Notes under the pieces: model-generated
Database searches by the model: none
What the model was told of the DNA's origin: nothing
The model's input: the letters and a program-made list of their open reading frames with translations, nothing else
Part shown: positions 3,130 to 33,180 of the stretch, piece by piece
Position numbering within the stretch: the first letter of the stretch is position 1
How the letters are laid out: the number at the start of each line of letters is the position of its first letter
Virus record (IMG/VR): IMGVR_UViG_3300020048_006428
Location: 183,178-247,177 of that record
DNA length: 64,000 nt
Strand: one strand, 5' to 3'
Source of the DNA: a virus
Lineage: Duplodnaviria > Heunggongvirae > Uroviricota > Caudoviricetes
Made by a program: the position numbers and the translations under genes

Positions 3130-3699
3130 ATGGATAAGTTTTCTAAGTTAAAGCCAAATAGTGATAAACCCACTTCTAAAAAAGAAAATGTCTTATTTCA
3201 AAATAAATATGTAAAATTAATTGAATTTGATGATTGGTCAATTATAACTGGAAAAGACTGTGTAATTTGCATTCCTTATCTTATAGAACAAAATAAGTTT
3301 ATAATTAGACAAGAATACATACCAACATATAAATATGCAGAAGGGCAAGATTTTCATTTAGCTTGTGTTGGTGGTGAAATAGAAGAAAGCGAAACACCAG
3401 AAGAATCATTAATTAGAGAATTACAAGAAGAAGCAGGAATTGTCCTAAGAGAAAACTTTAGAATCGAATTGGAAAAGCCATTATTCTTTAATAAAGGTTG
3501 TTCTGTAAAATGTTATTATTGTATAATAACATTAAATGAAAATGATTATCATGAAATAGTTCCACCAACAGATGGTTCTAAAGTAGAAAAAATGAGTCAA
3601 ACAGCTAAAATTGATGTAAAATATATAAATTCATTAAATACATCTGACATAACAACAGAATTTATGTTAGATAAACTTAGAAAACACTTAAACTTATAA
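3130..3699 (+). CDS. Nudix hydrolase
   Basis: Nudix box GGEIEESETPEESLIRELQEEAGI (Gx5Ex7REUxEExGU). Confidence 0.65.
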   Translation: MDKFSKLKPNSDKPTSKKENVLFQNKYVKLIEFDDWSIITGKDCVICIPYLIEQNKFIIRQEYIPTYKYAEGQDFHLACVGGEIEESETPEESLIRELQEEAGIVLRENFRIELEKPLFFNKGCSVKCYYCIITLNENDYHEIVPPTDGSKVEKMSQTAKIDVKYINSLNTSDITTEFMLDKLRKHLNL

Positions 3700-5481: not shown

Positions 5482-5520
5482 TTGACAAATTTTAAAAATT
5501 TTAAAATTTGTCAATTTTTA
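5482..5520 (+). terminator. rho-independent terminator hairpin
   Basis: perfect 12-bp inverted repeat ttgacaaatttt/aaaatttgtcaa followed by T-run. Confidence 0.6.
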
Positions 5521-5544
5521 TTTTGTTTTATTAAATATAATACT

Positions 5545-5552
5545 TATCTTTG
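5545..5552 (+). promoter_or_regulatory. Bacteroidota sigmaA-type -7 element TATCTTTG (TTTG at 5522-5525, 19 nt upstream)
   Basis: matches TTTG-N19-21-TAnnTTTG; ATG 18 nt downstream. Confidence 0.45.
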
Positions 5553-5569
5553 TAATTAAATCAGTAATA

Positions 5570-6577
5570 ATGAATATAAAGAATACATTTTTGAAATTGA
5601 CGAGTAAGACCTACCCATACGGATATGAAGAAGATTTGGAACATTTTTTACCAAATAAATTCAAAAAAGATTTAGGTGGTAATTATTTCTACAAATTAGG
5701 TGATAGTAAAACAGCATTTACTTGCCACTTAGACACAGCTTGTTTAGAACAAGTTAAAGTAAATCATATTATAGATGGTAATATGATCAGAACTAATGGT
5801 AAATCGATATTAGGTGCAGATGATAAAGCTGGTATGACAATACTTCTTTATATGATAGAACACAATGTTCCAGGTTTATATTGTTTTTTCATTGGTGAAG
5901 AAGTTGGTTGTATTGGTTCGGGTTATGCTTCCTTAGATAATTCATATAAAGTATACGATCGTATAATATCTTTCGATAGAAGAGGAACTACATCGGTTAT
6001 AACACACCAATCATCTAAACGTTGTTGTTCAGATGAATTTGCAAAATCCTTAGTAAAAGAATTTAATAAATATGACTTATCAATGATTGCAGATGACACT
6101 GGAATCTATACAGACTCTGCTGAATTTATAACAGTGATTTCTGAATGCACAAATATATCGGTTGGATATTATAATGAACATACATATAATGAATGTCAAG
6201 ATATTGTATACTTAGAAAAATTAGCAAAAGCAGTTGTAAGAATTGATTGGGAATCATTACCAACTAAAAGAAAGACCAATGTCATTGAATATAAAAGCAA
6301 ACCAAAATATAATGATGGTGTTGTTTATGATGGTTTTAAAAAGAAAAAGAATCGCTATAATGATAGATACAATGAATATGATGATTTTGTATACAAAGAA
6401 ATAAAAGAAATAAAATCATACAAACAACAAAACAAGCACTATTATGAACCATTTAAGCAAAGCTTATATGATGATAATATAACTAAACAAGAATTTGAAG
6501 AAATAAAAGATATGTATTTAGATTTAAATGATCCAGCTGATATGGATTATTATTTAAAAATTAAAGATTCACTTTAA
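5570..6577 (+). CDS. M42/M20-clan (MH) metallopeptidase-like protein
   Basis: GADDKAGMTILL and FFIGEEVGCIGS motifs typical of M42 glutamyl aminopeptidase/M20 family. Confidence 0.45.
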   Translation: MNIKNTFLKLTSKTYPYGYEEDLEHFLPNKFKKDLGGNYFYKLGDSKTAFTCHLDTACLEQVKVNHIIDGNMIRTNGKSILGADDKAGMTILLYMIEHNVPGLYCFFIGEEVGCIGSGYASLDNSYKVYDRIISFDRRGTTSVITHQSSKRCCSDEFAKSLVKEFNKYDLSMIADDTGIYTDSAEFITVISECTNISVGYYNEHTYNECQDIVYLEKLAKAVVRIDWESLPTKRKTNVIEYKSKPKYNDGVVYDGFKKKKNRYNDRYNEYDDFVYKEIKEIKSYKQQNKHYYEPFKQSLYDDNITKQEFEEIKDMYLDLNDPADMDYYLKIKDSL

Positions 6578-6789
6578 TCTCTAAATTTAGAAATTATATC
6601 ATCTTTTTTTATTAATTGGTCTGGTGCATTTTTTATTTGTGATTGTTCAATATTATGAGAAATTAAATATTTATTTCCTTTTTTTTCTAATATCTTTACT
6701 GGGACAATCATTTTATTATACCAATATTTAATCAGCACAATATCTTCTTCCTTATAAAAGGATTTATATTCTAAAATAAATTTCATCAT
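6574..6789 (-). CDS. small hypothetical protein
   Basis: only ORF in 230-nt gap between + strand genes; K-rich. Confidence 0.3.
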   Translation of the reverse strand: MMKFILEYKSFYKEEDIVLIKYWYNKMIVPVKILEKKGNKYLISHNIEQSQIKNAPDQLIKKDDIISKFRD

Positions 6790-8129: not shown

Positions 8130-8735
8130 ATGATAAAAATAGGTCTTACAGGTAATTATTTTTCTGGTATGGATGATGTTATCAAAATTTATAATAAATT
8201 GAATATACCAGTATACAATGCCGATTTAGTAACTAAGTTTATACTAAACTATTCTGAGTTATCAATTAGGAAAATCAGAAAAACATTTGGTGATGTTTAT
8301 GATTATGGTTTATTAAATCTAAATAAATTTGATACGAATAATAGATTTGAATTGCTATTAAATCTTATAAATTCAGATTTATTGGAATCATATTATAGAT
8401 TCTTAGATAAGAATAAAGATGCAAAATATGTTATTTTTAAATCATCTATTTTATTTGAAAATAAATACAATAAATTGATGGATTATAATATAAATATATT
8501 TAAACCTTGTTCTGAAAGATATGACTTAGTTGATAAAATAACTTCAATTGATTCAACAACCCTTGAATTCATAATATCAAATGAATTATCTGAAGATTAT
8601 AAATGTAATAATTCAGATTTTATTATAAACAATTATAGTGAATATACTTCAAAAGAAATATATTCACTAGAAAATCAAGTTCTTAAAATTGACCAATCCT
8701 TATTATTTAACTTTAATAAGGAAGTCTTCACCTAA
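8130..8735 (+). CDS. dephospho-CoA kinase-like protein with degenerate P-loop
   Basis: MIKIGLTGNYFSGMDDVIKIYNKLNIPVYNADLV resembles CoaE start (IGLTGGIGSGKS..vidaD) but lacks GKS. Confidence 0.3.
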   Translation: MIKIGLTGNYFSGMDDVIKIYNKLNIPVYNADLVTKFILNYSELSIRKIRKTFGDVYDYGLLNLNKFDTNNRFELLLNLINSDLLESYYRFLDKNKDAKYVIFKSSILFENKYNKLMDYNINIFKPCSERYDLVDKITSIDSTTLEFIISNELSEDYKCNNSDFIINNYSEYTSKEIYSLENQVLKIDQSLLFNFNKEVFT

Positions 8736-13086: not shown

Positions 13087-13146
13087 TTGCGGACTTTGAA
13101 AACGAAAACTTTAAATAACCACAAAATTATGTTAGAAAACGAAAAT

Positions 13147-13362
13147 ATGAATGAAGCAGAAACTCCGCAATTGAATATAGGTGCTGTTATGTGTGCGTTG
13201 CCTTGTCCTTTTTGTGGCTCGGATATTGAAATTGAAACAACAACTTTTGGAGATAGCATGACTGATTTTTTTAGAGTAAACTGCAAACAAAAAGGACACT
13301 CACTTGATTGGTGGGAAGAAGATAAAAATAAAGCTATTGCTGTTTGGAACGAGAGGCAATGA
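13147..13362 (+). CDS. Lar-family-like zinc-ribbon protein (restriction alleviation-like), copy A
   Basis: ALPCPFCGSD...CKQKGH; near-identical to 63660 ORF; start chosen by paralogue (MNEAETPQLNIGAVMC). Confidence 0.45.
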   Translation: MNEAETPQLNIGAVMCALPCPFCGSDIEIETTTFGDSMTDFFRVNCKQKGHSLDWWEEDKNKAIAVWNERQ

Positions 13363-13422
13363 CACATAACTATAATATATCAACACCTATTACTAAAACC
13401 TCAACAAACAATCATTTAGACA

Positions 13423-14223
13423 ATGAAAAAAACAGATTACTACGAAATTTGTAATCAAAAATTGAAGTATTTAAATTATTCAGATAGGACAGTAAAGTCC
13501 TATCTGTTTTATATAAAACAATTTTTTGATGATATTAAAATATCACCAACAAGATTAACTTCTAAGGATTTCCAATCCTATTTAGATAACTATAACTTCA
13601 CTTCAGTTTCTCAACAGAATCAAGTAATTAACGCAATCCGATTTTTGTATAAATTCGGATTAAATAAAAAATATGATAAGGTTAGTTTTAAAAGACCTAA
13701 ATCAGAAAAGAAATTACCAAAGGTTATTGATGGAAATTTTATTAAGGAACAACTATCAAAAATTGAAAATATAAAACATAAGGCAATACTAACTTTAACC
13801 TATTCCGTTGGACTTAGAGTATCAGAAGTAATTAACCTTAAAATTGAAAATCTTGATTCTAAACGAATGATTATACATATCAAAAATGCCAAAGGTAGAA
13901 AAGATAGAATAGTTCCGCTGTCTAAAACTGTTTTGGAATTATTAAGGATATATTGGAAAGAATATAAACCAAAGGAATATCTTTTCAATGGTCAAAAAAC
14001 TTCAAAATATAGCTATACTAGTTGTAATAAAATCGTTAAAAAGTACTTAGGTGAAGAATATCATATACATCAATTAAGACATTCTTGTTTCACCAATTTA
14101 TTAGAAGTCGGTACTGATTTACGTATAATCCAAAAAATTGCAGGACATTCTAATGTTAAAACAACCGAAATTTATACACACGTTTCAAATCAATTATTAA
14201 GTAAAGTAAACTTACCTATTTAG
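13423..14223 (+). CDS. tyrosine site-specific recombinase (phage integrase family, XerC/D-size)
   Basis: R (LRVSE), K (KGRKDR), HQLRHS (HxxR), H (AGHSN) and catalytic Y (EIYTHV) all present. Confidence 0.8.
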   Translation: MKKTDYYEICNQKLKYLNYSDRTVKSYLFYIKQFFDDIKISPTRLTSKDFQSYLDNYNFTSVSQQNQVINAIRFLYKFGLNKKYDKVSFKRPKSEKKLPKVIDGNFIKEQLSKIENIKHKAILTLTYSVGLRVSEVINLKIENLDSKRMIIHIKNAKGRKDRIVPLSKTVLELLRIYWKEYKPKEYLFNGQKTSKYSYTSCNKIVKKYLGEEYHIHQLRHSCFTNLLEVGTDLRIIQKIAGHSNVKTTEIYTHVSNQLLSKVNLPI

Positions 14224-14226
14224 CAT

Positions 14227-14266
14227 AAAAAAAAGTCCAAATATTTAAAATATTTGGACTTTTTTA
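14227..14266. terminator. bidirectional rho-independent terminator hairpin
   Basis: aaaaaagtccaaatatttaaaatatttggactttttt between convergent genes. Confidence 0.6.
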
Positions 14267-14300
14267 GTATTTATTTTTCTAAGCGGATAAAATATAAAGT

Positions 14301-14338
14301 AAAAAAGTCCCAAACATATTAAATGTTTGGGACTTTTG
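14301..14338. terminator. second terminator hairpin (serves minus-strand operon)
   Basis: aaaaaagtcccaaacatattaaatgtttgggactttt; 12-bp stem. Confidence 0.6.
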
Positions 14339-14341
14339 TGT

Positions 14342-15427
14342 TTAGTTAGCTACTGTAAGGAATATCTTTCTATTCATTCTATCAACTGCAATTACTTTAA
14401 CTTTTATTTCACTGCCTTGTTCTAATTTCTTAGAAGATTTTTCCAATTCAGAAATATGTATTAGACCATTTGTTTCACCATCCAATCCAATCAATACACC
14501 AAATGATTTTGTATCTTTAACTATACCTTTAATTGTTTGACCAATTTTGATAGAGTCCCAAAGAGATTCACGAAGAACTTGTGTAAGAATTATCTTATCT
14601 TTGATAATCTCTTTAATGAAGAAATCAATTTCATAACCTGGTAGAATTTCATCAATTCTATCAACCAATTCCGGATTAAGGTTAGTTTTGTGTATCATAC
14701 CAGTCAAACATTCTTTGAATTCAACAAATACACCAAATTGAGTAGTTCCTGTTACGATACCAGTATAAACAACATTGTTTTTAAGTTCTTTAATCGCAAG
14801 TGGTATCAAAGTTTGAAGATATTTTCTTCTGCTTACAATATAAGTTCCTTCTTCTTGTGAAAAGGATTCAATCATAACATTGAAAGTCTGTCCAACAATT
14901 GCATTAGGTGATGAAAGTTTATTTATACCAGCTAATGTATTTGGCATAAATCCAGGTAAAGTAACACTTTCATATGAAATATCAACTGTATATCCAGCTG
15001 GAGTAAGTTCTTTAATGTATGCCATAACAGATACACCACCTTTTAGATTAGTCAAAGATTTTCTTGCTTTGCTTTCATAAAGTTCAGATAAACTACCATT
15101 TATTTCATAGCTTGTGTTGTTTACCTTTGTAATAAGAATGTCTACTTTATCACCAATGTTAGTATTAACTAAATACTTAGATTCACTTGGTTTATTTTCC
15201 ATTCTAACATAATCCTTAAATGATCCATCAAAAGCAAAATCAACACCTGATATACCAACATATGTTAGTGTAACAACTTTTCCTTCAACCGGAACTTGAA
15301 TATCAGATTCATCATAAAGTTTCAATAGGTCTTCTTGGGACATATATTTTTCATCAACTACCAATTCAGTAGCAAAAAAATCGGTATCCATAATTCTAGG
15401 ATCACCATAATAATTTTTCTTAGCCAT
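14342..15427 (-). CDS. rpsA: ribosomal protein S1 (bS1) homologue, four S1 domains
   Basis: IVSRRKYL (cf. E. coli VVSRRAV); S1 domains e.g. GQTIKGIVKDTKSFGVLIGLDGETNGLIHISEL and YTGIVTGTTQFGVFVEF; N-terminal arrangement like E. coli S1. Confidence 0.65.
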   Translation of the reverse strand: MAKKNYYGDPRIMDTDFFATELVVDEKYMSQEDLLKLYDESDIQVPVEGKVVTLTYVGISGVDFAFDGSFKDYVRMENKPSESKYLVNTNIGDKVDILITKVNNTSYEINGSLSELYESKARKSLTNLKGGVSVMAYIKELTPAGYTVDISYESVTLPGFMPNTLAGINKLSSPNAIVGQTFNVMIESFSQEEGTYIVSRRKYLQTLIPLAIKELKNNVVYTGIVTGTTQFGVFVEFKECLTGMIHKTNLNPELVDRIDEILPGYEIDFFIKEIIKDKIILTQVLRESLWDSIKIGQTIKGIVKDTKSFGVLIGLDGETNGLIHISELEKSSKKLEQGSEIKVKVIAVDRMNRKIFLTVAN

Positions 15428-15479
15428 ATTTTTTTATTTTTAAACGTTAGGTAATATATAAAAGAAAGTACTATAAGTT

Positions 15480-15848
15480 TTAGATTTTAGATTTTATTTC
15501 AATTTTATTTTTAATCATAAAATCTCTTAATTTAGCAGCTTCTTCATACTTTTCATATTTCAAATAATTATTTAGTTTATTATTTAATTCAATTGATAAA
15601 TCTTTTTTCTTTACTTTTTTTTCATTGTTATCAATTAATGAATTATAATAATCTTTCATTTGTGAAATATCAAAAAAATGAATTAGTTCTATATCATTTA
15701 GATCATTAAGTTTAGTATTATCTTTAATTTTATTTAAAAATTCTTTATCTAAAGCACCATTATCAATCAAAAACTTTGCTAAATTATTAGGTCTGTCTTT
15801 AAAATGTTTTAGAAAATAAAGTAGATTCTTATAAGTGTTATCATTCAT
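15480..15848 (-). CDS. hypothetical protein
   Basis: ORF in minus operon. Confidence 0.4.
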   Translation of the reverse strand: MNDNTYKNLLYFLKHFKDRPNNLAKFLIDNGALDKEFLNKIKDNTKLNDLNDIELIHFFDISQMKDYYNSLIDNNEKKVKKKDLSIELNNKLNNYLKYEKYEEAAKLRDFMIKNKIEIKSKI

Positions 15849-15856
15849 ATAGAATA

Positions 15857-16546
15857 TTATAATTTTTCAAAATATATATTATAGTAATATTTAAAGGAAT
15901 ATTGACTTGATGGTTTTTCTTGATAAAACTTAATCCTTATATCTAAATCATTAGCATCAGTTTCAGTTTGTATTTTAGTGAAAAGTGATGTTGAACCTTC
16001 AATACCAGCATCATATATATTTTTATATCTTAATCCTCCAACCGTCAATATATCAATATATTTTATAAACATTTCTACTTTGGTAAATTTATATCTACTT
16101 AATACATTCCTATCAATATATTCATATAATGCAGAATCAACATTATTACTAATTGTCATATTATTTCTAATGCCTTCAAAAGTTCTATATTTTTTCATAG
16201 TAGCAAATAAATAATTCCTTAATATCTTTTGGATTTCTATATCAGCAATCCATTTTGTGTTATTATTCATATCTGTTTCAGTTTGTGATTCATCAATAAA
16301 TAATACGTGATTAATTCCTTTGTCATTTACTGCATCATAAATTATCTGCGGTAAATTTCTTTCTGCATCAAAATCTAATTGTTCCTTTGTACCTAATTGA
16401 TAGAAGATAATATTTTCATTTTTAATATCAATCTTATCTTCTATATTAAGCATCTTTGAACCAAAAAATGAACTTTGTTCAAGCATATTCATTGTTCCAA
16501 ATATTGGCTTATAATCAAATTCAGGGCTTATATATGTTCTTCTCAT
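15857..16546 (-). CDS. hypothetical protein (start overlaps upstream stop, ATGA)
   Basis: ORF; translationally coupled to 16543..20901. Confidence 0.45.
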   Translation of the reverse strand: MRRTYISPEFDYKPIFGTMNMLEQSSFFGSKMLNIEDKIDIKNENIIFYQLGTKEQLDFDAERNLPQIIYDAVNDKGINHVLFIDESQTETDMNNNTKWIADIEIQKILRNYLFATMKKYRTFEGIRNNMTISNNVDSALYEYIDRNVLSRYKFTKVEMFIKYIDILTVGGLRYKNIYDAGIEGSTSLFTKIQTETDANDLDIRIKFYQEKPSSQYSFKYYYNIYFEKL

Positions 16547-19500
16547 AATTGTGATAAATTATTATTATTTGTGTTATTATTATCTATATTACCAACTAAT
16601 GATTCATTTGATAAAGATTCTTGTTTTTGTGGGATTTCCAAACATTCTATATGATAATTTAAATCCCAAGTTGATTTAAATATAAAGAAATCTTTAATAA
16701 AATAACCATATTCATCCAACATAGGATATATAGATTTTATATTTGGATTATTTCTTAGTTTTAAAATATTTTTACTTCTATTAACCTTTGAAAAAATACG
16801 TTCCTTAATTGTTCCAAAATAAGTTAAATCTGTATCAAATTTATAATTACCACCACTTTTTTCTAATGTTGGGGCTTTAAACAATTCAATTTTATTAAAT
16901 ATAGGTGAATAATAACCACTGTGTCTATAAAGATTATTATATATGTTGTTTTTCAAACCACTATAATTTTCTACCTTCAATGGATTATCCTTTCTTTTTT
17001 CTATTTTTGTTGCTAAATGTAAATCTGAGTAATAATTTAATTGATTTAAAGATACAACATTACCTAAATCTAATTTCTTATTAGGTTTTATTTCACTTAC
17101 TTCCAAAGTAATAGGATCAACATTATTTGATTGAATTCTTGTTAAGAATTCATCAGGTGTATCACATTTCAATAAAACAGGTAATTTTTCTAATGTTTTG
17201 AAATCATTAAAATCATAAATGTTTAAAGATAAATCTTCATTAATTATAATATATCTAATCTTATCACTAAAATCATAATTATTTTCCAAATCATTAATTG
17301 CTTGCATAAAATTATTAGCAGTTAATTTTTTATAAATATCGGAATATAAATCATCTCTATTTGTATTAGATATATTATCATTTTCAACTACCCAATTACT
17401 AAATCCCAAATCTATACAAGTAGAAAAGGTATTATCATTTATATAGATATTTACTAATACATTTTTCCATTTTTTATTAATGTAGATATTAATACCATTT
17501 TCCAAAGTTGATAATGGTGTATTATTAATAACTGTTGGTTGCCCCCTTTTACTTAATGTTGTTGATATAGATGTTGGATTGTCATTATCTACACAAAAAT
17601 ATAATCTATTATTCATTTCAATTATTGGATTTTTACCATCTGAAAATGAATTATGATATAAATAATTTGTATCAGGTTTTAAGCTATAAATCCTTTTCCA
17701 ATTGCTATCTAATGGTGGTTCTAATCCTCTAATAGGAAATCCTATTGTCACATAAACAACATCATTATAAACAACATAATGTCCATTTGAAAATAATAAT
17801 GAATTCCACATTGAATTTAATGGTTCATATGTTTTTTCTAATTGCCACAATTCTATTATGTCCCAAATTACATCAGAATTTGGAGATTCTGACCAATTGT
17901 TTATATAATTTCCATTATCCACATAAAAATTATTATTATTTGGTGCTGTATTAGTTTCTATATTTGCTTTCCATATTTTATTTTTATATAACACAACATC
18001 ATCAATAGAATATGTATTTCCGGGTATCCAAAAATTATTTCCATTTATACCACTTGAATAATAATAATCCCCACTATTATATACCAATGGTGGAATAATT
18101 ACACCTAATGAAAAAACAGTCTGACCAAAATAAAACATATTATTTTTAGTAGTTGAATTTGAACCATCAATATTAGTTGACCAAAATATATTATTATCAG
18201 TAAATAATCCCCAATCTGTTGAATTATATGGATATGAACTTGGATTAGTTATTTGTGACTGTGTTGATGAAATATATAAAATATCATTAAACTTAACAAT
18301 GCTGCTAACCTTATAAATCTTATCATGTTTCCATTCATCTATTAGTTTCCATCTAAGATAGTTAGAACCATAATTAACATTACCAATATTTATATCAGTT
18401 GAACTATTTACTACATAATTATTTTCACTTAATAGAATAGCGAATTTATAATCTGAATATCCATTATTAGACTTTATATTAATTGCATCTATTTTATCAT
18501 CAGTTATTTTAACACCATTAACATCATATAATTTAAATTTTAATCCTCTAAATAAAGTTGTATTGGGTATTGTATTGTCACCAATATTAAAATAAGACCA
18601 TTTTTCAACATTTCTTATTTCACTACCTGAATCAAATAGTGTCTTTTTACCAAAGAAATAAGAAAAATAATCTAAATCATAATCAACATTAAGATATCTA
18701 TTTAAAGCAAATGTAGTTTTTGTTAAATTTTTAACTACACCACTATTTGTTGCAGTAACTACAATAAAATTAATATCTGTTGTTAAACACCAATTATCTG
18801 TTGCATTATAAAAAATATCTGTTATATAAGCGGTAGTATTATATTGTGGGTGGGTATATCCACTATCCTGTGTTATTTGAATATTATCACCTATACTAAA
18901 TGCGCCAATATTAGATATATTTATAAAAACAACCTTATTATTAATATTCTTATTAGTTGTAAAATATATTGATTCATCATCTACAACATGTAGACTATGA
19001 AATAAGTAATCATTTGAATCTGGATTAATAGTTAGGAAATAATCTAAATTTCTTTCTTGTCTATTAGGTTTAGGATCAAATGTATTAGTTGTTCTATTAA
19101 AATCTTCTGATATAAAAGAATTATTTAATAAATATGGGTAGTCACTTGATGAAATTGAATTTTGATATCCCCATTTTAATCGCTGGGCATTCTTCTTCCA
19201 CAAAGATGATAGATTATTATCAATAATCCTAAATGTTTCTGAATTTGCTGTATATTCAGAAGATGTTGGTATGTTAACAACCACATCATTTATTTTAAAA
19301 TCATCATAATCTTTTGGATTTGACTTTGATTCTTGGTTAACGACATACATTTTTGTTTCATCTGTTTGTGTTAATTGTGTTTTTTTAATATACTCATATT
19401 TAGAAAAATCAGTTTCCACTATGTTTGTATCAAAATCCATTATATCAGTAAACTTACATCTATAAATTGCAAATTTCTTAGGTGGATTTTGGCTATCAAC

Positions 19501-20901
19501 ATTTAAATTTATAGTTTTTCTATATGTAGGATCTGGACTATTTATATAATATTCAAATTTTTCCAATGATTGTGAAAAAGCATAATCAGTTTTTATATAA
19601 TAAACCCCATCAGTTTTTATTATGTTATGATAAACAGAATCTATTTCAATTAACCAAACATCTGAATCATCATAATTTTCAATTTCAAATACATCATCAT
19701 TATAGAAACTTATTTTATTTAGAGAATCTATTTTTATTAAATTTTTATTAATTTCTGATTGTCTACCTTCTAAGTTAATATTACTTATTATTTTATATTT
19801 AGTTAGATATTCTATATTTGGTTTATCTTCATATGAATTTTTACCAACTTTAACTTTAGTTAGTTTAGTTGCTTGTTCTTCTAAATATTTTTCTATTTTA
19901 TAAAAATCACCACTAATTTCAATATATGGATAATCATTTTTTTTAAAAGATTGTTCAAATGGATCAATATTAGATAGACTATATAAAATATTATTTTTAT
20001 CAATGACTACATCATCAACTACATTTGGTAATAAATAAGGACTAACATATTTTGTCAATTCTAAAGCATCCATATAAAAACCAACATACCTATTTAGCGA
20101 CCATTTTCTAAGTGAACTTGGTGTAGCCGGTGTATCATCAAATAAGAAGCTTAAATTTAATATATTTGGAAAAACAACTTTATTATTTTTATAACCATCA
20201 AATATGAATTTTTCAAATTCATAATATAATTGTTCATACTCTAAAAATGTATCCATCATAAATGATTTTTCACTATATCCACCATCTTCATAATCTATAC
20301 CAATCCATGTTGAAAATTCCAATTTTCTAAAATCCATATAGAATGGTGCATTTGGAAAAGACTTATTTTTTAAGATATTTTTTTCCAACCATTCACCAAG
20401 TTTAGTTTTTCTTGTTAAATCAAATAATTTAACACATTTTAATTTATTTATTATTTCACTATTGAAATTAGACTTATCAATATTCAATAATCCAGGTCCA
20501 TCAATTCTAAATATTATAAAATTGCTTGGTAATCCAGTTTTTGAAATATATAATGGTGCGAAATATTCAAATTCTTCACTATAATCTTTATTTTCAATTA
20601 TATTTCTTGCACCATATTGATATATATCATCATATTGCTTAGAAAAATCAGATGACATATTATCATTATCATTATCATCTTTAATACCGAATGCAATATC
20701 AACTGGTGTATTCTTAAAGAAATGTGGTAATACTTCATCCCAATAATTATCTTTATTAAATTCCATTTTTTTATATTTTGTAGATGATAATTCTGAATTT
20801 GATATTATAGAATCTACATATAAACTGTATGAACCACTAATCAAAATTTTTGCATTAGTGGTTAATCCTACATTAGTTCTTAGTATTGAATGACTTTTCA
20901 T
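16543..20901 (-). CDS. giant N/Y/S/T-rich protein (1452 aa), probable virion/tail fibre-like structural protein
   Basis: intact 4.36-kb ORF; low-complexity N/Y-rich composition; function inferred only. Confidence 0.5.
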   Translation of the reverse strand: MKSHSILRTNVGLTTNAKILISGSYSLYVDSIISNSELSSTKYKKMEFNKDNYWDEVLPHFFKNTPVDIAFGIKDDNDNDNMSSDFSKQYDDIYQYGARNIIENKDYSEEFEYFAPLYISKTGLPSNFIIFRIDGPGLLNIDKSNFNSEIINKLKCVKLFDLTRKTKLGEWLEKNILKNKSFPNAPFYMDFRKLEFSTWIGIDYEDGGYSEKSFMMDTFLEYEQLYYEFEKFIFDGYKNNKVVFPNILNLSFLFDDTPATPSSLRKWSLNRYVGFYMDALELTKYVSPYLLPNVVDDVVIDKNNILYSLSNIDPFEQSFKKNDYPYIEISGDFYKIEKYLEEQATKLTKVKVGKNSYEDKPNIEYLTKYKIISNINLEGRQSEINKNLIKIDSLNKISFYNDDVFEIENYDDSDVWLIEIDSVYHNIIKTDGVYYIKTDYAFSQSLEKFEYYINSPDPTYRKTINLNVDSQNPPKKFAIYRCKFTDIMDFDTNIVETDFSKYEYIKKTQLTQTDETKMYVVNQESKSNPKDYDDFKINDVVVNIPTSSEYTANSETFRIIDNNLSSLWKKNAQRLKWGYQNSISSSDYPYLLNNSFISEDFNRTTNTFDPKPNRQERNLDYFLTINPDSNDYLFHSLHVVDDESIYFTTNKNINNKVVFINISNIGAFSIGDNIQITQDSGYTHPQYNTTAYITDIFYNATDNWCLTTDINFIVVTATNSGVVKNLTKTTFALNRYLNVDYDLDYFSYFFGKKTLFDSGSEIRNVEKWSYFNIGDNTIPNTTLFRGLKFKLYDVNGVKITDDKIDAINIKSNNGYSDYKFAILLSENNYVVNSSTDINIGNVNYGSNYLRWKLIDEWKHDKIYKVSSIVKFNDILYISSTQSQITNPSSYPYNSTDWGLFTDNNIFWSTNIDGSNSTTKNNMFYFGQTVFSLGVIIPPLVYNSGDYYYSSGINGNNFWIPGNTYSIDDVVLYKNKIWKANIETNTAPNNNNFYVDNGNYINNWSESPNSDVIWDIIELWQLEKTYEPLNSMWNSLLFSNGHYVVYNDVVYVTIGFPIRGLEPPLDSNWKRIYSLKPDTNYLYHNSFSDGKNPIIEMNNRLYFCVDNDNPTSISTTLSKRGQPTVINNTPLSTLENGINIYINKKWKNVLVNIYINDNTFSTCIDLGFSNWVVENDNISNTNRDDLYSDIYKKLTANNFMQAINDLENNYDFSDKIRYIIINEDLSLNIYDFNDFKTLEKLPVLLKCDTPDEFLTRIQSNNVDPITLEVSEIKPNKKLDLGNVVSLNQLNYYSDLHLATKIEKRKDNPLKVENYSGLKNNIYNNLYRHSGYYSPIFNKIELFKAPTLEKSGGNYKFDTDLTYFGTIKERIFSKVNRSKNILKLRNNPNIKSIYPMLDEYGYFIKDFFIFKSTWDLNYHIECLEIPQKQESLSNESLVGNIDNNNTNNNNLSQL

Positions 20902-23900
20902 TATCTATTTGATATTAATTGTGTTGGGGTTGAAGCCAATGTTTTCTTAGATATTACTTTTGATCTATTTATTACAAATTTTATAGTAAATATAAATGGT
21001 CTATTATCTGCTTCATTTTCCAAAAGAAATCTAAGCTTTTTAATATGTGTTACTGTTGATTTGGAACTATTTAAATTTATATATTGATAATTCAATCCTG
21101 GCAATGAAGAATCAACCGAATTCATTTTAAAATATATATTTATTGGTATATTTATATCATTTTTATCCCCACCATCTAAATTTTTAATTTTATCAGCATT
21201 TGTTTCTTGAATTTTATCCAATCCTTGAACTTGTGGATGTATTGACGTTAATAATTTAGTTGTTGATGAAACACTTACATTTGTATCTATCCATTTTGTA
21301 GTATCTAATAAAGAATTATTATTACCAACAAATGTTAATATAGATCTACCAGAATAACCAACATTATATTCACTTGATGAAAGAATATTTGTTATTGAAT
21401 TACTCCCTAAATTAACAAATCCATTACCTATATTTTCAGATAATTTTGTAACAGTTGTTTGCTTAACACTGTCATAATTAACTGACCAAAGATATTGATA
21501 ATTATTTTGTGTTTTAGTAGTTCCTGTTGAATTATCTACCACTAATTCATTTTGTTGATTAACCCAAAATACTTGAGGTGTTGCATTATTATATAAATCA
21601 CTATTTGAATCTGAATATGTTCTATTAGATAATAATCCAAGTGGACTTTCAGTTGATTTATTCTTTAATTTCATAAGGAAATCCTTAATAACATAAATAT
21701 TATTTTGATAAACCCTTCCTGTTGGAACACCCGCTGCTGTATAATTATCCAAATAATCTTCACATTCTATATTAAATACGATTTCACTTCCGTTTTTAAC
21801 AATGAATAATTCACTATTTCTAAATATAGACACTTCAAGTTCACCTTTAGCTCTTTTGATTTTTTCTTCAAGTGAAACAATTTTATTTTCAAGTTTTTTC
21901 AAATATTCAAATAAATCTAAAGCTATACCATTTTCATCTTTAAATCCTGATAATATTTTATCTGATTGGTGATGATATGTAACATTATTAACAGTTACCT
22001 GTTCTGACAAATGTTCATCTAATCCTTTTGCAGATAAATCATTCTGAACACTTACTCTTAAATCTTCTTTAGTAGCTTCTTTTAAAATAAAGTCATTTTC
22101 ATTTAAAACATTATTTAAATCATCAGGGAATTCTAAGGTCAATTCATTACTCCAATCTGATTCAACTGGTGATTCTGGCCAACCAACTTCTGATATAGAT
22201 TTTATTCTTATTAAAACCTTTTCACCATATCTTATTGGTATATCCAATTGATTTATATTTGGTGTATCTGCATCTGCAACATCTTCAATTTCCCATGTAT
22301 AAACACCTGTTGTAGCATCAAATGTTCTTTTTCTTGTATCGGTTTTAAATTCATTCCAATTTGATATTGCACCAGTTTTTTGATTAGTATTAGAATCACT
22401 TAAAACAGTTGTTTCAACAGGTGATTCTCTACCATCTTTACTAAGATATTTGTATTGAATTCTAAATTGTACAATTTCTTGTGGTTTAGTTCCTCTAGTA
22501 ATAACTGCTTCAGGAATTGACCAAAATCCACGTATTCTAAATATAGGATTAACTTTTATATTAGGTGACTTAGACATATCCAATATTTCAGAAGTAACTG
22601 ATGATAATAATTTAGATTTACTTTCTTTATTTTTGTTTAATAAATCTAATTCATTTGAAAATTGCTTCTTTTCAGATTCAGATGTAAATCTTTGAACCTT
22701 TAATTGTTTAGTTTTTTCTGATAAAGCATCATATATTTGCTTTATTTCAGATTTAATATTTTTTTGTTGATTATGTTTATTTTTTATTAAATTTGAATCT
22801 GGCGTATCAGTTAAATGTTTGTTAATCTGAACAACCTTAAAGTTATCTATATTTAAAGTAACAAGATTGGGTGTTCCTGCTAAAGTATTTGGTGTTTTTT
22901 TAGCAACTAAATCAGTTAATACTTGACCATAATCATATACAATATCTGTATAAAACTGTTCCATTGATGTTCCAGTATCGGATTCCCTCAAATCATTTGT
23001 CCAAAAACCTAAACCCGAACTCCAATTTTTAGATAATATATAATTTTCCATATTCAAACCCTTTATAAAAAGAATGTTTCTTTCATTGTAGCCAACACTT
23101 ATTAAAACATTCTTATTATATAAAACAGGGGAATATATCTTTAATGTACCTACACCAACTGGTATTGGTTCATTTCCTTCAACTCTTTCAAATCTTAATT
23201 TTGGATTTGAAGATGTATTTGAAATTTCTATTATTTTATATCTTGTAGTAGAAATTGGTGTATTTATAATCAATTCATCGTTTACTTTTAGTTCTATAGC
23301 TTCTTGTGTAATTACACCATTCACAGTAATATTTCTAACATAACTTAAAGTATCTACATAATAAAATAATTTTCTATTTATTGTATCTTCTTCAACTTTT
23401 AAAACTGTAAATGTTCCATCATATTCCAATATATTTGGTTCTAAATCAAATAATTGTTCATCATAATTTGGATTAATTGATTCAATTAATCCTGGTGTAT
23501 TTAGGTGCCATTCTAAATATTCATCTAATGTAAAACCATTTTTATTTTTAAATAAATTATTAAAGCTATTCAATGCAGACTGTCCTAATGGTGTAAAATT
23601 TCCACTTGAATCTTTAGCAAATTCTGGAATATATCTTCTACATAATATTTTTCTAACATTATTTTCAATTTGTGAATTTAAGTCCAATTCAACAAATATC
23701 TGTGGATTTAATAATCCATCAAAAAACCAATTCTTTTTAGTTTTAAATGTTGTTAATTGATTTAAACTACCAATATCATTTGGTTCTCTATTCAAATCAA
23801 CAGTAACTACCTTTTTAAATTTAGATCCATTTGATGGTTGTATTAAAGCACCTGCTTCATTTATACCATAGATTGAATTTATATTGTTATTTAATCTATC

Positions 23901-24095
23901 AATTTCAGATTTTAAATATCCGAAAGATGGTAATGTAAATTGTTTTATTACCCCACTTTGATCAGCAATATTAACTGTAACAGATGGATCTGATGTTGTT
24001 ACTAAATTATTTATTTTTGATAATAAATCAACAATATTATTATTAAAATTAATAACTTGTTCTGCTACTGTTACAAATGAATTTTGACCTGCCAT
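20901..24095 (-). CDS. giant protein (1064 aa) with central coiled-coil, probable structural protein
   Basis: intact 3.2-kb ORF; stop overlaps start of 1452-aa gene. Confidence 0.5.
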   Translation of the reverse strand: MAGQNSFVTVAEQVINFNNNIVDLLSKINNLVTTSDPSVTVNIADQSGVIKQFTLPSFGYLKSEIDRLNNNINSIYGINEAGALIQPSNGSKFKKVVTVDLNREPNDIGSLNQLTTFKTKKNWFFDGLLNPQIFVELDLNSQIENNVRKILCRRYIPEFAKDSSGNFTPLGQSALNSFNNLFKNKNGFTLDEYLEWHLNTPGLIESINPNYDEQLFDLEPNILEYDGTFTVLKVEEDTINRKLFYYVDTLSYVRNITVNGVITQEAIELKVNDELIINTPISTTRYKIIEISNTSSNPKLRFERVEGNEPIPVGVGTLKIYSPVLYNKNVLISVGYNERNILFIKGLNMENYILSKNWSSGLGFWTNDLRESDTGTSMEQFYTDIVYDYGQVLTDLVAKKTPNTLAGTPNLVTLNIDNFKVVQINKHLTDTPDSNLIKNKHNQQKNIKSEIKQIYDALSEKTKQLKVQRFTSESEKKQFSNELDLLNKNKESKSKLLSSVTSEILDMSKSPNIKVNPIFRIRGFWSIPEAVITRGTKPQEIVQFRIQYKYLSKDGRESPVETTVLSDSNTNQKTGAISNWNEFKTDTRKRTFDATTGVYTWEIEDVADADTPNINQLDIPIRYGEKVLIRIKSISEVGWPESPVESDWSNELTLEFPDDLNNVLNENDFILKEATKEDLRVSVQNDLSAKGLDEHLSEQVTVNNVTYHHQSDKILSGFKDENGIALDLFEYLKKLENKIVSLEEKIKRAKGELEVSIFRNSELFIVKNGSEIVFNIECEDYLDNYTAAGVPTGRVYQNNIYVIKDFLMKLKNKSTESPLGLLSNRTYSDSNSDLYNNATPQVFWVNQQNELVVDNSTGTTKTQNNYQYLWSVNYDSVKQTTVTKLSENIGNGFVNLGSNSITNILSSSEYNVGYSGRSILTFVGNNNSLLDTTKWIDTNVSVSSTTKLLTSIHPQVQGLDKIQETNADKIKNLDGGDKNDINIPINIYFKMNSVDSSLPGLNYQYINLNSSKSTVTHIKKLRFLLENEADNRPFIFTIKFVINRSKVISKKTLASTPTQLISNR

Positions 24096-24748: not shown

Positions 24749-25552
24749 ATGGTAGACGTACAAGCAATTAAATCTTTTAGTGAGCAAGATTCTTATTTTA
24801 AAGAACGAACAGGTAATGATTTTACTTTCTTTTATAATAAGTATTACCCAAAACTTATTTATTTCACAACCAAAATGTGTAATAATGATATTCAAAAAGC
24901 AGAAGATATAACAACTGATTCTTTTATGACTGCATTTGATAAAATATATATGTATGAAAAAGATAAATCACAATTTTCAACATGGTTATTTACAATTGCA
25001 AGAAATTTTGTCTTACAAGATATTAAGAAGAAAAAGAAAACAATTTCACTTGATGTTGAATTTGATGAAGAAGGCACAACCTTAAAAGACTTTATTCAAG
25101 AAGATGAAGATTTAAGTTATATTTCCGATGTAGCAAGTAAAAAGGCTGTTATTTTAAATAAATATATTAATGAATTAAAAGAACCCTATAAAAAGGTTAT
25201 AGAAATGCGTGAAATCAAAAAGATGACTTATAGAAATATTGCTTCTGATTTAGGTGATGATATAACTATAACTTTGGATATAACTTCAGAAGAAGAATTT
25301 GAACTTCCTAAAGAAATATCATTGATTTATAATTTCGTTGATTCTAACGGTAATGAAAGTGGATATGAAGCAATAGTAAAACCAAAATCTCCTTTCTTTA
25401 CTTATATTAAAGCTTTACCAGGTAAATATACACTACATGGTAGATGTCCTAAAAATCTAAATACAGTTAAAAGTTCCATTAAAAATGGAAGGGCAATACT
25501 TATAAATAAATCTAAAAAAGAATTTCAGATACTTGATGAAATGTTTTTGTAA
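24749..25552 (+). CDS. sigma-70 family (ECF-like) RNA polymerase sigma factor with C-terminal extension
   Basis: region 2 AEDITTDSFMTAFDK..FSTWLFTIARNFVLQDIKK; region 4 LKEPYKKVIEMREIKKMTYRNIASDLG. Confidence 0.55.
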   Translation: MVDVQAIKSFSEQDSYFKERTGNDFTFFYNKYYPKLIYFTTKMCNNDIQKAEDITTDSFMTAFDKIYMYEKDKSQFSTWLFTIARNFVLQDIKKKKKTISLDVEFDEEGTTLKDFIQEDEDLSYISDVASKKAVILNKYINELKEPYKKVIEMREIKKMTYRNIASDLGDDITITLDITSEEEFELPKEISLIYNFVDSNGNESGYEAIVKPKSPFFTYIKALPGKYTLHGRCPKNLNTVKSSIKNGRAILINKSKKEFQILDEMFL

Positions 25553-32822: not shown

Positions 32823-32896
32823 GATCCTGTAGCGTAATTGGGTAACGCAAATTGCTTTTAACAATTTAGATGCAAGTTCAAATCTTGCCAGGATCA
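32823..32896 (+). tRNA. tRNA-Lys (anticodon TTT)
   Basis: acceptor gatcctg/caggatc, T-loop gcaagttcaaatcttgc, anticodon loop cttttaa. Confidence 0.6.
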
Positions 32897-32919
32897 CAAA
32901 AATATTAAATTTTAAAAAT

Positions 32920-32996
32920 GGTGATGTAGCTGAATTGGTCTAGCACCTGATTGAAGATTAGGGATTATGTGGGTTCAAATCCCATCGTCACCACCA
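32920..32996 (+). tRNA. tRNA-Phe (GAA), CCA encoded
   Basis: acceptor ggtgatg/cgtcacc, anticodon loop ttgaaga, gggttcaaatccc T-arm, 3' acca. Confidence 0.6.
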
Positions 32997-33004
32997 ATAA
33001 ATAA

Positions 33005-33086
33005 GGAAGAGTACACGCTGGAATGTGGGGCTGTTTTGAAAACAGTTAAGTCTTACGATTTGAGGGTTCGAGTCCCTCTTCTTCCT
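33005..33086 (+). tRNA. tRNA-Ser (TGA), long variable arm
   Basis: acceptor ggaagag/ttcttcc, anticodon loop tttgaaa, T-arm gagggttcgagtccctc. Confidence 0.5.
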
Positions 33087-33097
33087 CAAATTACATT

Positions 33098-33169: not shown

Positions 33170-33180
33170 CAAAATTATAT

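What the first reader, a model, noticed from the sequence alone, without database searches (positions are those of the whole stretch)
14342..15427. Phage-encoded ribosomal protein S1 homologue at the end of the giant structural-gene operon
The 361-aa protein has four S1 domains, the diagnostic IVSRRKYL segment (E. coli S1 has VVSRRAV) and an S1-like N-terminal layout. It is the last gene of the minus-strand operon that also encodes the two giant proteins, so it would be co-expressed with them. A viral bS1 could redirect ribosomes to leaderless or SD-less viral mRNAs, and Bacteroidota translation depends on S1 because SD pairing is weak.
Basis: partly seen in the sequence, partly recalled or inferred. 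Interest (0 to 1): 0.65.

Follow-up and report, generated by a model that had tools for sequence, protein, structure and literature searches.

The report
Shortened ribosomal protein S1 in megaphage
A giant bacteriophage carries a shortened, four-domain copy of ribosomal protein S1 that keeps the parts S1 uses to dock on the ribosome, so it probably helps the phage get its Shine-Dalgarno-less messages translated; the same kind of gene was already reported in these huge phages in 2020.

Summary
The ORF is real: 14342-15427, minus strand, 361 aa. It is a true derivative of ribosomal protein bS1, not a generic S1-domain protein.

Evidence that it derives from bS1:
- Profiles of its first two modules match only OB1 and OB2 of cellular bS1. 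Those two are the S1-specific ribosome-binding modules.
- A confident AF2 model (pLDDT 90) matches ribosome-bound E. coli bS1 best.
- The residues equivalent to the E. coli uS2 anchors are among the most conserved in the family: Y38 for F9, K71 for K43.
- Basal family members carry the Bacteroidota-only N-terminal motif, which docks on uS8 in Flavobacterium.

Limits:
- It has only two canonical RNA-binding domains and no D5-D6.
- It scores far below every rpsA equivalog cut-off.
- It is 19-24% identical to any cellular S1 and forms its own deep clade (at least 121 clusters at 50% identity).
- It is therefore an old phage lineage, not a recent capture from a host.

Context: the window's genes lack SD motifs entirely and have A-rich leaders. 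The gene ends a five-gene block conserved only among close relatives. "Structural" is plausible for the giant genes but unproven.

Novelty: low. Al-Shayeb et al. 2020 reported possible rpS1 in exactly these SD-less huge phages, and JGI already names this exact protein S1. Ribosome binding and any redirection of translation remain untested.

The parts
14342..15427 (-). Gene for the 361-aa shortened bS1-like protein (stop codon 14342-14344)
   Evidence: ORF list. It is identical to public protein P0001, which JGI names 'ribosomal protein S1'. The best family, PDB and fold matches are ribosomal S1.
15338..15427 (-). N-terminal extension (residues 1-30), disordered in the model. It holds the degenerate motif D16-F17-F18-A19-T20-E21 (nt 15365-15382).
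   Evidence: pLDDT is below 50 for residues 1-24. MAFFT places the motif in the same columns as the Bacteroidota bS1 motif F[DN]Wxx[FY]E. The reduced motif occurs in 99 of 209 family members, against 31 +/- 5 in shuffled N-termini. The intact motif is in Lak-C1, P0183, P0196, P0203, P0208 and P0221. In F. johnsoniae this motif is a helix docked on uS8 (PMC13000457).
15293..15337 (-). Helix before OB1 (residues 31-45, QEDLLKLYDES). It is positionally equivalent to the uS2-binding N-terminal helix of E. coli bS1.
   Evidence: Helix 31-40 in the model. In the alignment Y38 pairs with E. coli F9 and L35 with F5, and Muribaculaceae bS1 reads LEKTYDES. Y38 is aromatic in 88% of 91 representatives and is the only residue >=80% conserved in this segment. 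The E. coli contacts come from PMC10123108.
15080..15292 (-). OB1 (residues 46-116), the ribosome-anchoring domain, with K71 equivalent to E. coli K43
   Evidence: The family OB1 profile hits only OB1 of cellular bS1: Prevotellaceae 37.6, Muribaculaceae 32.1, Flavobacterium 30.7 and E. coli 18.6 bits. K71 aligns with K43 and is K/R in 95% of representatives. It is one of three residues >=80% conserved in OB1.
14813..15049 (-). OB2 (residues 127-205), ending in the IVSRRKYL segment
   Evidence: The family OB2 profile hits only OB2 of every cellular S1 tested (32-56 bits). Y146 and F160 align with E. coli F120 and F130 and are 97% aromatic and 96% F respectively. K117 is replaced by Pro. D1-D2 fragments of ribosome-bound bS1 superpose at TM 0.69-0.71.
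14570..14788 (-). Third module (residues 214-286): a canonical S1 RNA-binding domain and the most conserved part of the family
   Evidence: PF00575 match. It matches D3-D6 of cellular S1 about equally. F231, F234 and H246 are conserved at 74-97%.
14345..14554 (-). Fourth module (residues 292-361): a canonical S1 RNA-binding domain and the best Pfam match
   Evidence: PF00575 best stretch 294-359. It matches D3-D6 of cellular S1 at 30-67 bits.
15428..15479 (-). 52-nt gap upstream of the gene: A-rich (AAAAATAAAAAAAT before the ATG), with no SD
   Evidence: Sequence printed. Window-wide, 0 of 59 genes have GGA at -20..-4 (6.4 expected) and A peaks at -12, -6 and -3. This matches the Bacteroidia initiation-region pattern in PMC6847099.
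14303..14337 (.). Terminator-like hairpin (15-bp stem) 5 nt after the stop codon, in the gap convergent with the integrase gene
   Evidence: 6 terminator-like sites in the region against 1.5 +/- 1.2 in shuffles.
15480..24095 (-). Four upstream same-strand genes (122 aa 15480-15848; 229 aa 15857-16546; 1452 aa 16543-20901; 1064 aa 20901-24095). Together with the S1-like gene they form the conserved block.
   Evidence: ORFs. The order is conserved in LR756502, LR745206 and five IMG/VR contigs, but not in LR756501, LR756500, Lak-C1 or two others. Function is unknown. The giant pair is conserved in jumbo phages of Bacteroidota hosts and in PAU gp264/265.

Best explanation
The gene encodes a phage-lineage, shortened version of ribosomal protein bS1.

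Architecture: an N-terminal docking segment, then OB1 and OB2 (the S1-specific ribosome-binding module), then two canonical S1 RNA-binding domains.

Proposed mechanism: during infection of a Bacteroidota host it docks on the 30S subunit at the normal bS1 site. The pre-OB1 helix and K71 of OB1 contact uS2, and the remnant N-terminal motif contacts uS8. It either supplements or displaces host bS1, which is loosely bound and sub-stoichiometric. Its OB2 and two RNA-binding domains then hold the A-rich, unstructured, SD-less leaders of phage mRNAs at the mRNA exit side, out to about nt -12 to -15. This sustains or biases initiation on phage messages.

Shown here: homology to bS1, domain correspondence, conservation of anchor-equivalent residues, absence of SD in the window, and phage-clade distribution.

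Inferred: physical binding to 30S, competition with host bS1, and any preference for phage mRNAs.
For: Whole-protein matches.
- The best family matches are rpsA models, collinear over residues 26-358.
- A single collinear stretch aligns to Flavobacterium bS1 residues 27-370.
- The AF2 model has pLDDT 90.4 and four OB folds.
- Foldseek's top hits are ribosome-bound E. coli bS1: 9gut_B at E 2e-23 over 355 columns, and D1-D2 fragments at TM 0.69-0.71. RNase R/II and PNPase are orders of magnitude weaker.

Domain correspondence.
- Domain profiles show D1 matches only OB1 and D2 only OB2. D3 and D4 match any of D3-D6.

Anchor residues, as defined in PMC10123108.
- K43 corresponds to K71, which is K/R in 95% of representatives.
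- F9 corresponds to Y38, aromatic in 88%.
- F120 and F130 correspond to Y146 and F160, at 97% and 96%.
- These are the best-conserved residues of their segments.

Bacteroidota link.
- The Bacteroidota-specific N-terminal motif is found in 62 of 74 Bacteroidota bS1 and 0 of 7 other S1. It is intact in basal family members and enriched in reduced form, 99 of 209 against 31 +/- 5.
- In F. johnsoniae that motif is a helix docked on uS8, and the bS1 N-terminus is stably bound to uS2 and uS8 (PMC13000457).

Translation context.
- 0 of 59 window genes carry GGA upstream, and leaders are A-rich with peaks at -12, -6 and -3. These are the positive determinants in F. johnsoniae, where domain 4 of bS1 is positioned at nt -12 to -15 (PMC6847099).
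- Added bS1 doubled initiation on an SD-less mRNA with F. johnsoniae ribosomes, and bS1 is sub-stoichiometric on purified ribosomes (PMC9976891).
- The family is confined to huge phages predicted to infect Bacteroidetes.
Against: - No experiment or complex model shows binding.
- The N-terminal motif is degenerate in the window's own protein (DFFATE, no Trp), and AF2 gives residues 1-24 low confidence.
- The F5 equivalent is aliphatic and poorly conserved, and K117 of OB2 is Pro in most members.
- The Lak-C1 homologue lacks the anchor Lys.
- The protein scores 86-109 bits against rpsA cut-offs of 368-918.
- Trees never place the family with Bacteroidota (0/300), so 'tuned to the Bacteroidota ribosome' rests on short motifs.
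- Only 7 non-Bacteroidota S1 were checked for the motif.
- A preference for phage over host mRNAs has no direct support, because host Bacteroidota leaders are also A-rich and SD-less.
Confidence: 0.55

Rival explanations
1. Off-ribosome RNA-binding protein. The S1 scaffold is kept, but the protein acts free in the cytoplasm. It could be an RNA chaperone, an mRNA protector, or a cofactor of a phage enzyme, as host S1 is for T4 RegB and Q-beta replicase. It would not be a ribosomal subunit protein.
For: - Only the two C-terminal domains are canonical, Pfam-detectable RNA binders, and the third module is the most conserved part of the family.
- The N-terminal docking motif is degenerate in this subclade.
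- The protein fails all rpsA equivalog cut-offs.
- Extraribosomal roles of bS1 with phage enzymes are documented (summarised in PMC13157829).
Against: - In E. coli, OB1 and OB2 have no detectable RNA-binding activity and serve ribosome binding (PMC10123108). Both are nevertheless retained across the whole family.
- The uS2-anchor equivalents K71 and Y38 are the most conserved residues of their segments.
- An off-ribosome binder would have no reason to keep them, or to keep the Bacteroidota-type N-terminal helix in basal members.
Confidence: 0.25
2. Dominant-negative shut-off factor. The truncated S1 occupies the bS1 site on host 30S and blocks host translation, because it lacks D5-D6. It would not itself promote phage initiation.
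For: - It keeps the docking module and lacks D5-D6.
- From my own knowledge, not tested here: over-production of the E. coli S1 N-terminal fragment (residues 1-106) displaces S1 and inhibits translation of canonical mRNAs.
Against: - Two intact, conserved RNA-binding domains with the canonical aromatic and His residues are retained. A pure blocker would not need them.
- Phage genes in the window have leaders of the same SD-less, A-rich kind as host genes, so they would be blocked too.
Confidence: 0.12
3. Generic S1-domain protein (of the PNPase, RNase E/R, Tex or GSP13 kind), or a bacterial rpsA fragment present through contamination or mis-assembly.
For: Weak hits to the S1 domains of PNPase, RNase R and GSP13/CvfD appear lower in the lists.
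Against: - Those hits cover only the C-terminal S1 domain, and no catalytic domain is present.
- OB1 and OB2 are bS1-specific.
- The gene sits in a conserved block inside complete 635-642 kb phage genomes and in IMG/VR contigs.
- The window has 24% GC throughout.
- The family is monophyletic and distinct from cellular S1.
Confidence: 0.02

Closest known systems
'Possible rpS1' proteins of huge phages (Al-Shayeb et al. 2020, Nature; PMC7162821)
   Same: - Same clade of phages: the best matches are LR756502, LR745206, LR756504, LR756501/3 and LR756500, plus Lak.
- Same idea: an S1-like protein in genomes that lack SD sequences, with a proposed role in initiation.
- The paper's supplementary GenBank files annotate family members as 30S ribosomal protein S1.
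   Different: - The window is a different genome: at best 72% DNA identity over 4 kb, and 56-61% protein identity.
- The paper said true rpS1 was hard to confirm. Here the OB1/OB2 correspondence, the anchor residues and the Bacteroidota N-terminal motif are shown.
Bacteroidota ribosomal protein bS1 (e.g. Flavobacterium johnsoniae, 591-592 aa; PDB 9zcd_A; PMC13000457)
   Same: - Collinear from the pre-OB1 helix through the fourth domain (24-358 to 27-370).
- OB1 scores best against Bacteroidota.
- Shared helix (LLKLYDES against LEKTYDES) and anchor Lys.
- The N-terminal F[DN]Wxx[FY]E motif is shared with basal family members.
   Different: - 361 aa against about 590 aa, with no D5-D6.
- About 21% identity in OB1-OB2.
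- Never sister to Bacteroidota in trees.
- The motif is degenerate in the window protein.
- There is a 4-residue insertion in OB2.
E. coli bS1 (557 aa), domains 1-4
   Same: - Best structural match overall (9gut_B, E 2e-23), with D1-D2 at TM about 0.7.
- K43, F9, F120 and F130 equivalents are conserved.
- The VVSRRAV/IVSRRKYL segment matches.
   Different: - E. coli lacks the N-terminal extension.
- The F5 and K117 equivalents are not conserved.
- Sequence similarity is low: 70.8 bits, aligned piecewise.
Four-domain S1 of Firmicutes (e.g. the 391-aa Staphylococcus protein in record OR844988)
   Same: Similar length and number of domains. NCBIfam NF005208 matches 87-360.
   Different: - The phage OB1 profile does not single out the Staphylococcus first domain (17.8 bits, against 19.0 for its third domain).
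- There is no N-terminal extension or motif.
- From my own knowledge, not tested here: Firmicutes S1 is weakly ribosome-associated or not at all.
bS1 of jumbo cyanophage PhiMa05 (PMC13157829)
   Same: A phage-encoded bS1, proposed to replace the host protein.
   Different: The PhiMa05 gene groups with Vampirovibrio host genes, which indicates a host-derived acquisition. The family here is a deep, phage-only clade far from any cellular S1.
Phage-encoded bS21 (Mizuno 2019, PMC6375957; discussed in PMC9976891)
   Same: Same concept: a phage copy of a loosely bound 30S platform protein involved in initiation, with Bacteroidia as the main hosts. In F. johnsoniae bS21 stabilises bS1.
   Different: It is a different protein. 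Incorporation into ribosomes has been shown for one phage bS21, and for no phage S1.

Membership tests
Ribosomal protein bS1 (rpsA equivalogs: TIGR00717, NF004952, NF005208 and others) | Whole-protein score at or above the curated equivalog cut-off | tested here: not met
   TIGR00717 scores 85.7 bits against 577, NF004952 102.8 against 524, NF005208 88.2 against 368 and NF000907 109.3 against 624.
Ribosomal protein bS1 | N-terminal OB1 and OB2 modules, non-canonical and S1-specific, in that order | tested here: met
   The family D1 profile hits only OB1 and the D2 profile hits only OB2 of Bacteroidota, E. coli and other S1. D1-D2 fragments of ribosome-bound bS1 superpose at TM 0.69-0.71.
Ribosomal protein bS1 | uS2-anchoring residues: an aromatic pair in the N-terminal helix (E. 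coli F5, F9) and the loop-2 Lys (K43) | tested here: met
   K71 aligns with K43 and is K/R in 95% of representatives. Y38 aligns with F9 and is aromatic in 88%. The F5 equivalent (L35) is hydrophobic but variable. Reference residues come from PMC10123108.
Ribosomal protein bS1 | Four to six S1/OB repeats with C-terminal RNA-binding domains | tested here: met
   There are four OB folds, and the last two match PF00575. This is the lower end of the range, with no D5-D6.
Ribosomal protein bS1 | Physical, reversible association with the 30S subunit and stimulation of initiation | not testable with these tools
   This needs biochemistry or a complex prediction. No multimer tool was available.
Bacteroidota-type bS1 | N-terminal helix-loop-helix with the aromatic motif F[DN]Wxx[FY]E that docks on uS8 | tested here: inconclusive
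   The window protein has only DFFATE in the aligned columns. The intact motif is in Lak-C1, P0183, P0196, P0203, P0208 and P0221. The reduced motif is enriched in the family, 99 of 209 against 31 +/- 5. The structural role comes from PMC13000457.
Bacteroidota-type bS1 | Phylogenetic placement within or sister to Bacteroidota rpsA | tested here: not met
   NJ on OB1+OB2 never recovers phage+Bacteroidota (0/300 bootstraps in both 20-state and Dayhoff-6 coding). The phage family is monophyletic in 263-282 of 300.
Pfam S1 RNA-binding domain (PF00575) | Score above the gathering threshold | tested here: met
   75 bits against 22, with two stretches.
Non-ribosomal S1-domain enzymes (PNPase, RNase R/II, RNase E, Tex) | A catalytic or other signature domain alongside the S1 domain | tested here: not met
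   Matches to PNPase and RNase R models cover only their terminal S1 domain (residues about 287-353 or 220-253). No other Pfam domain is present.
Huge-phage 'possible rpS1' (Al-Shayeb 2020) | A multi-S1-domain protein encoded in a phage genome above 200 kb that lacks identifiable SD sequences | tested here: met
   The identical protein occurs on contigs up to 354 kb, and family members on contigs up to 780 kb. Relatives occur in the 462-735 kb genomes. 0 of 59 window genes have an SD-like motif.

The most novel reading that the evidence does not exclude
The short S1 proteins of Mahaphage/Lak-type megaphages are an ancient, phage-maintained paralogue lineage of bS1 that has co-evolved with the Bacteroidota 30S platform. 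It keeps the uS2 and uS8 docking elements and is cut down to the minimal length that reaches the A-rich -12 to -15 element. During infection it replaces host bS1 and creates phage-specialised ribosomes with altered mRNA selection. Its position at the end of a likely late baseplate/tail block in this subclade would tie that switch to late gene expression.
Probability: 0.2. Interest if true: 0.7.

Novelty: already known. Interest (0 to 1): 0.35.

Why it matters
How Bacteroidia ribosomes choose start codons without Shine-Dalgarno pairing is still open, and so is what bS1 contributes to that choice. A naturally minimised bS1 keeps the docking module and only two RNA-binding domains. It is maintained by phages that must translate hundreds of SD-less genes in such hosts. 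That makes it a ready-made probe for which parts of bS1 are sufficient for SD-independent initiation.

It would also be the first tested case of a phage S1 joining a ribosome. So far incorporation has been shown for only one phage bS21.

The gene itself and the hypothesis are already in the literature. What this analysis adds is sharper evidence that the protein is a true bS1 derivative, and a set of concrete residues to mutate.

Tried and rejected
- PHROGs gave no meaningful hit for the protein.
The single scan was then spent on Flavobacterium bS1 to obtain named Bacteroidota comparators. I therefore did not test whether GTDB genomes carry the short family.
- Cluster look-up of the nearest cellular-length relatives gave almost no names. 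Only P0259 was named, as Riflebacteria. The taxon of P0251, the nearest cellular S1 in the trees, remains unknown.
- The first bootstrap run with Biopython timed out and was replaced by my own NJ code.
- The trees did not resolve the origin. Compositional attraction was considered and rejected, because Bacteroidota sequences have the same FYMINK content as the phage.
- The sigma-70 promoter scan was uninformative: 97 sites against 107 expected. I found no match to TAnnTTTG by eye in the 52-nt gap and did not run a formal scan.
- PDB sequence searches of the two giant proteins found nothing, and Pfam found nothing.
- A literature search for phage PAU virion proteomics found nothing usable.
- Contamination and generic-S1-domain explanations were considered and rejected.
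Full report
**1. Observation**

The ORF at 14342-15427 on the minus strand encodes 361 aa with an ATG start. The window is uniformly AT-rich (22-32% GC) and carries eight tRNA genes.

Pfam detects the S1 domain (PF00575, E 6e-21) but passes only two stretches. NCBIfam's best matches are all rpsA models and are collinear (for example residues 26-358 to positions 25-372 of the 580-position NF004952). They score 86-109 bits against curated cut-offs of 368-918. PHROGs has nothing. HMMER aligns the IVSRRKYL segment to E. coli VVSRRAVIE.

**2. What genome this is**

tblastn against phage records finds the closest relatives in the 462-735 kb 'uncultured phage' genomes LR756502 (61%), LR745206 (56%), LR756504, LR756501/3 (42%) and LR756500 (32%), and in the Lak megaphages. 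The window DNA is not any of these records: the best match is 72% over 4 kb. These are the Mahaphage genomes of Al-Shayeb et al. 2020, predicted to replicate in Bacteroidetes.

The identical protein (P0001) is in public collections on at least 10 contigs of up to 354 kb, and JGI labels it 'ribosomal protein S1'. The family is large: more than 5000 hits at E<=1e-5. The best 120 are all about 360 aa and 59-71% identical, on contigs of up to 780 kb.

In a library clustered at 50% identity there are 121 clusters at E<=1e-30, nearly all 350-420 aa. Cellular-length S1 proteins appear only below about E 1e-32.

**3. Anatomy**

An AF2 model built on a 43-sequence family alignment (A1) is confident (pLDDT 90.4, pTM 0.77). 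It shows a disordered N-terminus (1-24), a helix (31-40) and four OB barrels joined by helices.

Foldseek against the PDB puts ribosome-bound E. coli bS1 first (9gut_B, E 2e-23, 355 aligned columns). D1-D2 fragments on the 30S superpose at TM 0.69-0.71. RNase R/II, PNPase and Tex are many orders weaker. By sequence, the 591-aa chain 9zcd_A aligns as a single stretch, 24-358 to 27-370. A genome scan shows that chain is Flavobacterium bS1, 99% identical.

Profiles built from each phage module give a clean answer:
- Module 1 matches only OB1 of cellular bS1, best in Bacteroidota (30.7-37.6 bits, against 18.6 for E. coli).
- Module 2 matches only OB2 (32-56 bits).
- Modules 3 and 4 match any of the canonical repeats D3-D6.

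The architecture is therefore the bS1-specific ribosome-binding pair plus two generic RNA-binding S1 domains, without D5-D6.

**4. Docking determinants**

In E. coli, bS1 is anchored to uS2 by F5 and F9 of the N-terminal helix, by K43 at the tip of OB1 loop 2, and by F79. OB2 residues K117, F120 and F130 face the mRNA (PMC10123108).

In an L-INS-i alignment of phage, Bacteroidota, E. coli and Staphylococcus sequences, the correspondences are:
- E. coli K43 aligns with window K71.
- F9 aligns with Y38, and F5 with L35.
- F120 aligns with Y146, and F130 with F160.
- K117 aligns with a Pro.

Across 91 representatives at 50% identity:
- K71 is K/R in 95% and is one of only three residues >=80% conserved in OB1.
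- Y38 is aromatic in 88% and is the only such residue in the pre-OB1 helix.
- Y146 is aromatic in 97% and F160 is F in 96%.
- The F5 equivalent is variable.

The helix itself reads LLKLYDES in the window and LEKTYDES in Muribaculaceae bS1.

**5. A Bacteroidota-specific character**

Bacteroidota bS1 proteins carry an N-terminal extension with the motif F[DN]Wxx[FY][EQ]. It is found in 62 of 74 proteins extracted from the scan and in 0 of 7 non-Bacteroidota S1. In the F. johnsoniae 30S structure, residues 11-20 (FLANFNWHNF) form a helix contacting uS8, and the bS1 N-terminus is stably associated with uS2 and uS8 (PMC13000457).

The intact motif occurs in Lak-C1 (FNWTPYE), P0183 (FDWDA), P0196, P0203 (FDWDAYE), P0208 and P0221. 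These sit in the basal branches of the family tree. Most other members have a reduced D-x-F-[ED] in the same columns: 99 of 209, against 31 +/- 5 in shuffled N-termini. The window has DFFATE.

**6. Origin**

NJ trees on the N-terminal helix plus OB1 and OB2 (170 columns) give a monophyletic phage family (263/300 bootstraps, 282/300 with Dayhoff-6 recoding) and a monophyletic Bacteroidota (300/300). They never give phage+Bacteroidota (0/300). There is weak attraction to P0251, a 509-aa S1 of unknown taxon.

Identity to every cellular S1 is a flat 19-24%, against 29% within the family. Composition does not explain this. So the gene is not a recent capture from a host. It is an old, fast-evolving, phage-maintained lineage. 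The motif evidence points to the Bacteroidota ribosome, but descent from a Bacteroidota rpsA is not demonstrated.

**7. Translation context**

None of 59 genes in the window has even GGA at -20 to -4 (6.4 expected). Leaders are G-poor and A-rich, with A highest at -12 (0.69), -17 and -6 (0.61), and 0.56 at -3.

In F. johnsoniae, adenines at -3, -6, -12 and -13 promote initiation, and domain 4 of ribosome-bound bS1 is positioned at nt -12 to -15 (PMC6847099). [quoted passage not shown] A four-domain S1 is thus long enough to reach the A-rich element.

**8. Neighbourhood**

The gene is last in a same-strand run of 1064, 1452, 229, 122 and 361 aa. A 52-nt A-rich gap precedes it, and a 15-bp-stem hairpin follows 5 nt after the stop. 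Across the gap lies a convergent tyrosine integrase.

The five-gene order is kept in all seven relatives whose S1-like protein is >=51% identical (LR756502, LR745206 and five IMG/VR contigs). It is absent in all five at <=42% (LR756501, LR756500, Lak-C1 and two IMG/VR contigs). In the 735-kb genome the giant pair lies at 462-470 kb and the S1-like gene at 684 kb.

The giants have no Pfam or PDB match. The 1064-aa protein belongs to a PHROG of unknown function. The pair is conserved in jumbo phages of Tenacibaculum, Chryseobacterium and Flavobacterium, and as gp264/gp265 of Sphingomonas phage PAU, five genes downstream of an annotated baseplate protein. 'Structural' is therefore plausible but not shown, and linkage to S1 is specific to this subclade.

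**9. Comparison with what is known**

Al-Shayeb et al. 2020 listed S1 among ribosomal proteins of huge phages. They noted that phages with possible rpS1 rarely have identifiable SD sequences. They said true rpS1 is hard to confirm and proposed a role in initiation 'on or off the ribosome'. Their supplementary GenBank files annotate family members as 30S ribosomal protein S1. Mizuno et al. 2019 set S1-domain proteins aside as ambiguous. A host-derived bS1 has been described in cyanophage PhiMa05. The finding is thus an already reported kind.

What this analysis adds:
- the OB1/OB2 assignment;
- conservation of the anchor residues;
- the Bacteroidota-type N-terminal motif;
- the depth and monophyly of the family;
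- the limited reach of the synteny.

**10. Verdict**

- A real bS1 derivative: confidence about 0.9.
- It docks on the host 30S: about 0.55-0.6.
- It biases translation toward phage mRNAs: about 0.3.

Novelty is low and interest is moderate to low.

Noticed in passing
window 32823-36378: A cluster of eight tRNA genes (Lys, Phe x2, Ser x4, Trp; 32823-34308, + strand) is followed closely by two adjacent RNA-ligase genes (35013-35663 and 35665-36378, PF09414). This looks like a tRNA supply and repair module.
   Followed up: no
window 16543-24095 (-): The 1064-aa and 1452-aa genes form a conserved adjacent pair. It is found across the Mahaphage clade, in Lak, and in cultured jumbo phages of Bacteroidota hosts (Tenacibaculum PTm1/PTm5/pT24, Chryseobacterium MA9V-1/2, Flavobacterium MaF61), and as gp264/gp265 of Sphingomonas phage PAU, near an annotated baseplate gene. 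No function is assigned anywhere.
   Followed up: partly
window 13087-14337: A tyrosine integrase (13423-14223, +) and a Lar-like restriction-alleviation gene (13087-13362, +) converge on the S1-like gene. Two strong hairpins (14229-14265 and 14303-14337) lie in the gap. Strain variants of the same phage carry an extra 129-aa ORF between the S1-like gene and the integrase (L004, L006), so this is a variable spot.
   Followed up: no
window 24749-25552 (+): A sigma-70-family factor gene (regions 2 and 4) is transcribed divergently from the giant-gene block. The E. coli-type promoter scan showed no enrichment in the region (97 sites against 107 expected), so the phage probably uses other promoter signals.
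   Followed up: no
window 26642-27340 (-) and 39805-40614 (+): Two GIY-YIG homing-endonuclease-like genes, one of them with NUMOD domains.
   Followed up: no
window 45919-46497, 8130-8735, 3130-3699: Auxiliary metabolic genes: adenylylsulfate (APS) kinase (E 2e-70), a dephospho-CoA-kinase-like gene and a NUDIX hydrolase.
   Followed up: no
whole window, -20..-4 of 59 genes: SD-like motifs are not merely absent but depleted: GGA occurs 0 times against 6.4 expected. G frequency is 0-12% at every leader position and A peaks at -12.
   Followed up: partly
L092 (Prevotella phage Lak-C1, MK250029.1) 5497-6606: The Lak homologue (369 aa) keeps the full Bacteroidota N-terminal motif (SFNWTPYEDG). However, its OB1 is divergent and lacks the anchor Lys (N in that column), and tblastn from the window protein covers only residues 115-264.
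   Followed up: partly
P0251 (509-aa S1, public protein collection): This cellular S1 of unknown taxon scores highest against the phage OB2, third-module and fourth-module profiles (56-67 bits). It is the weak nearest neighbour of the phage family in trees. It lacks the Bacteroidota N-terminal extension.
   Followed up: partly
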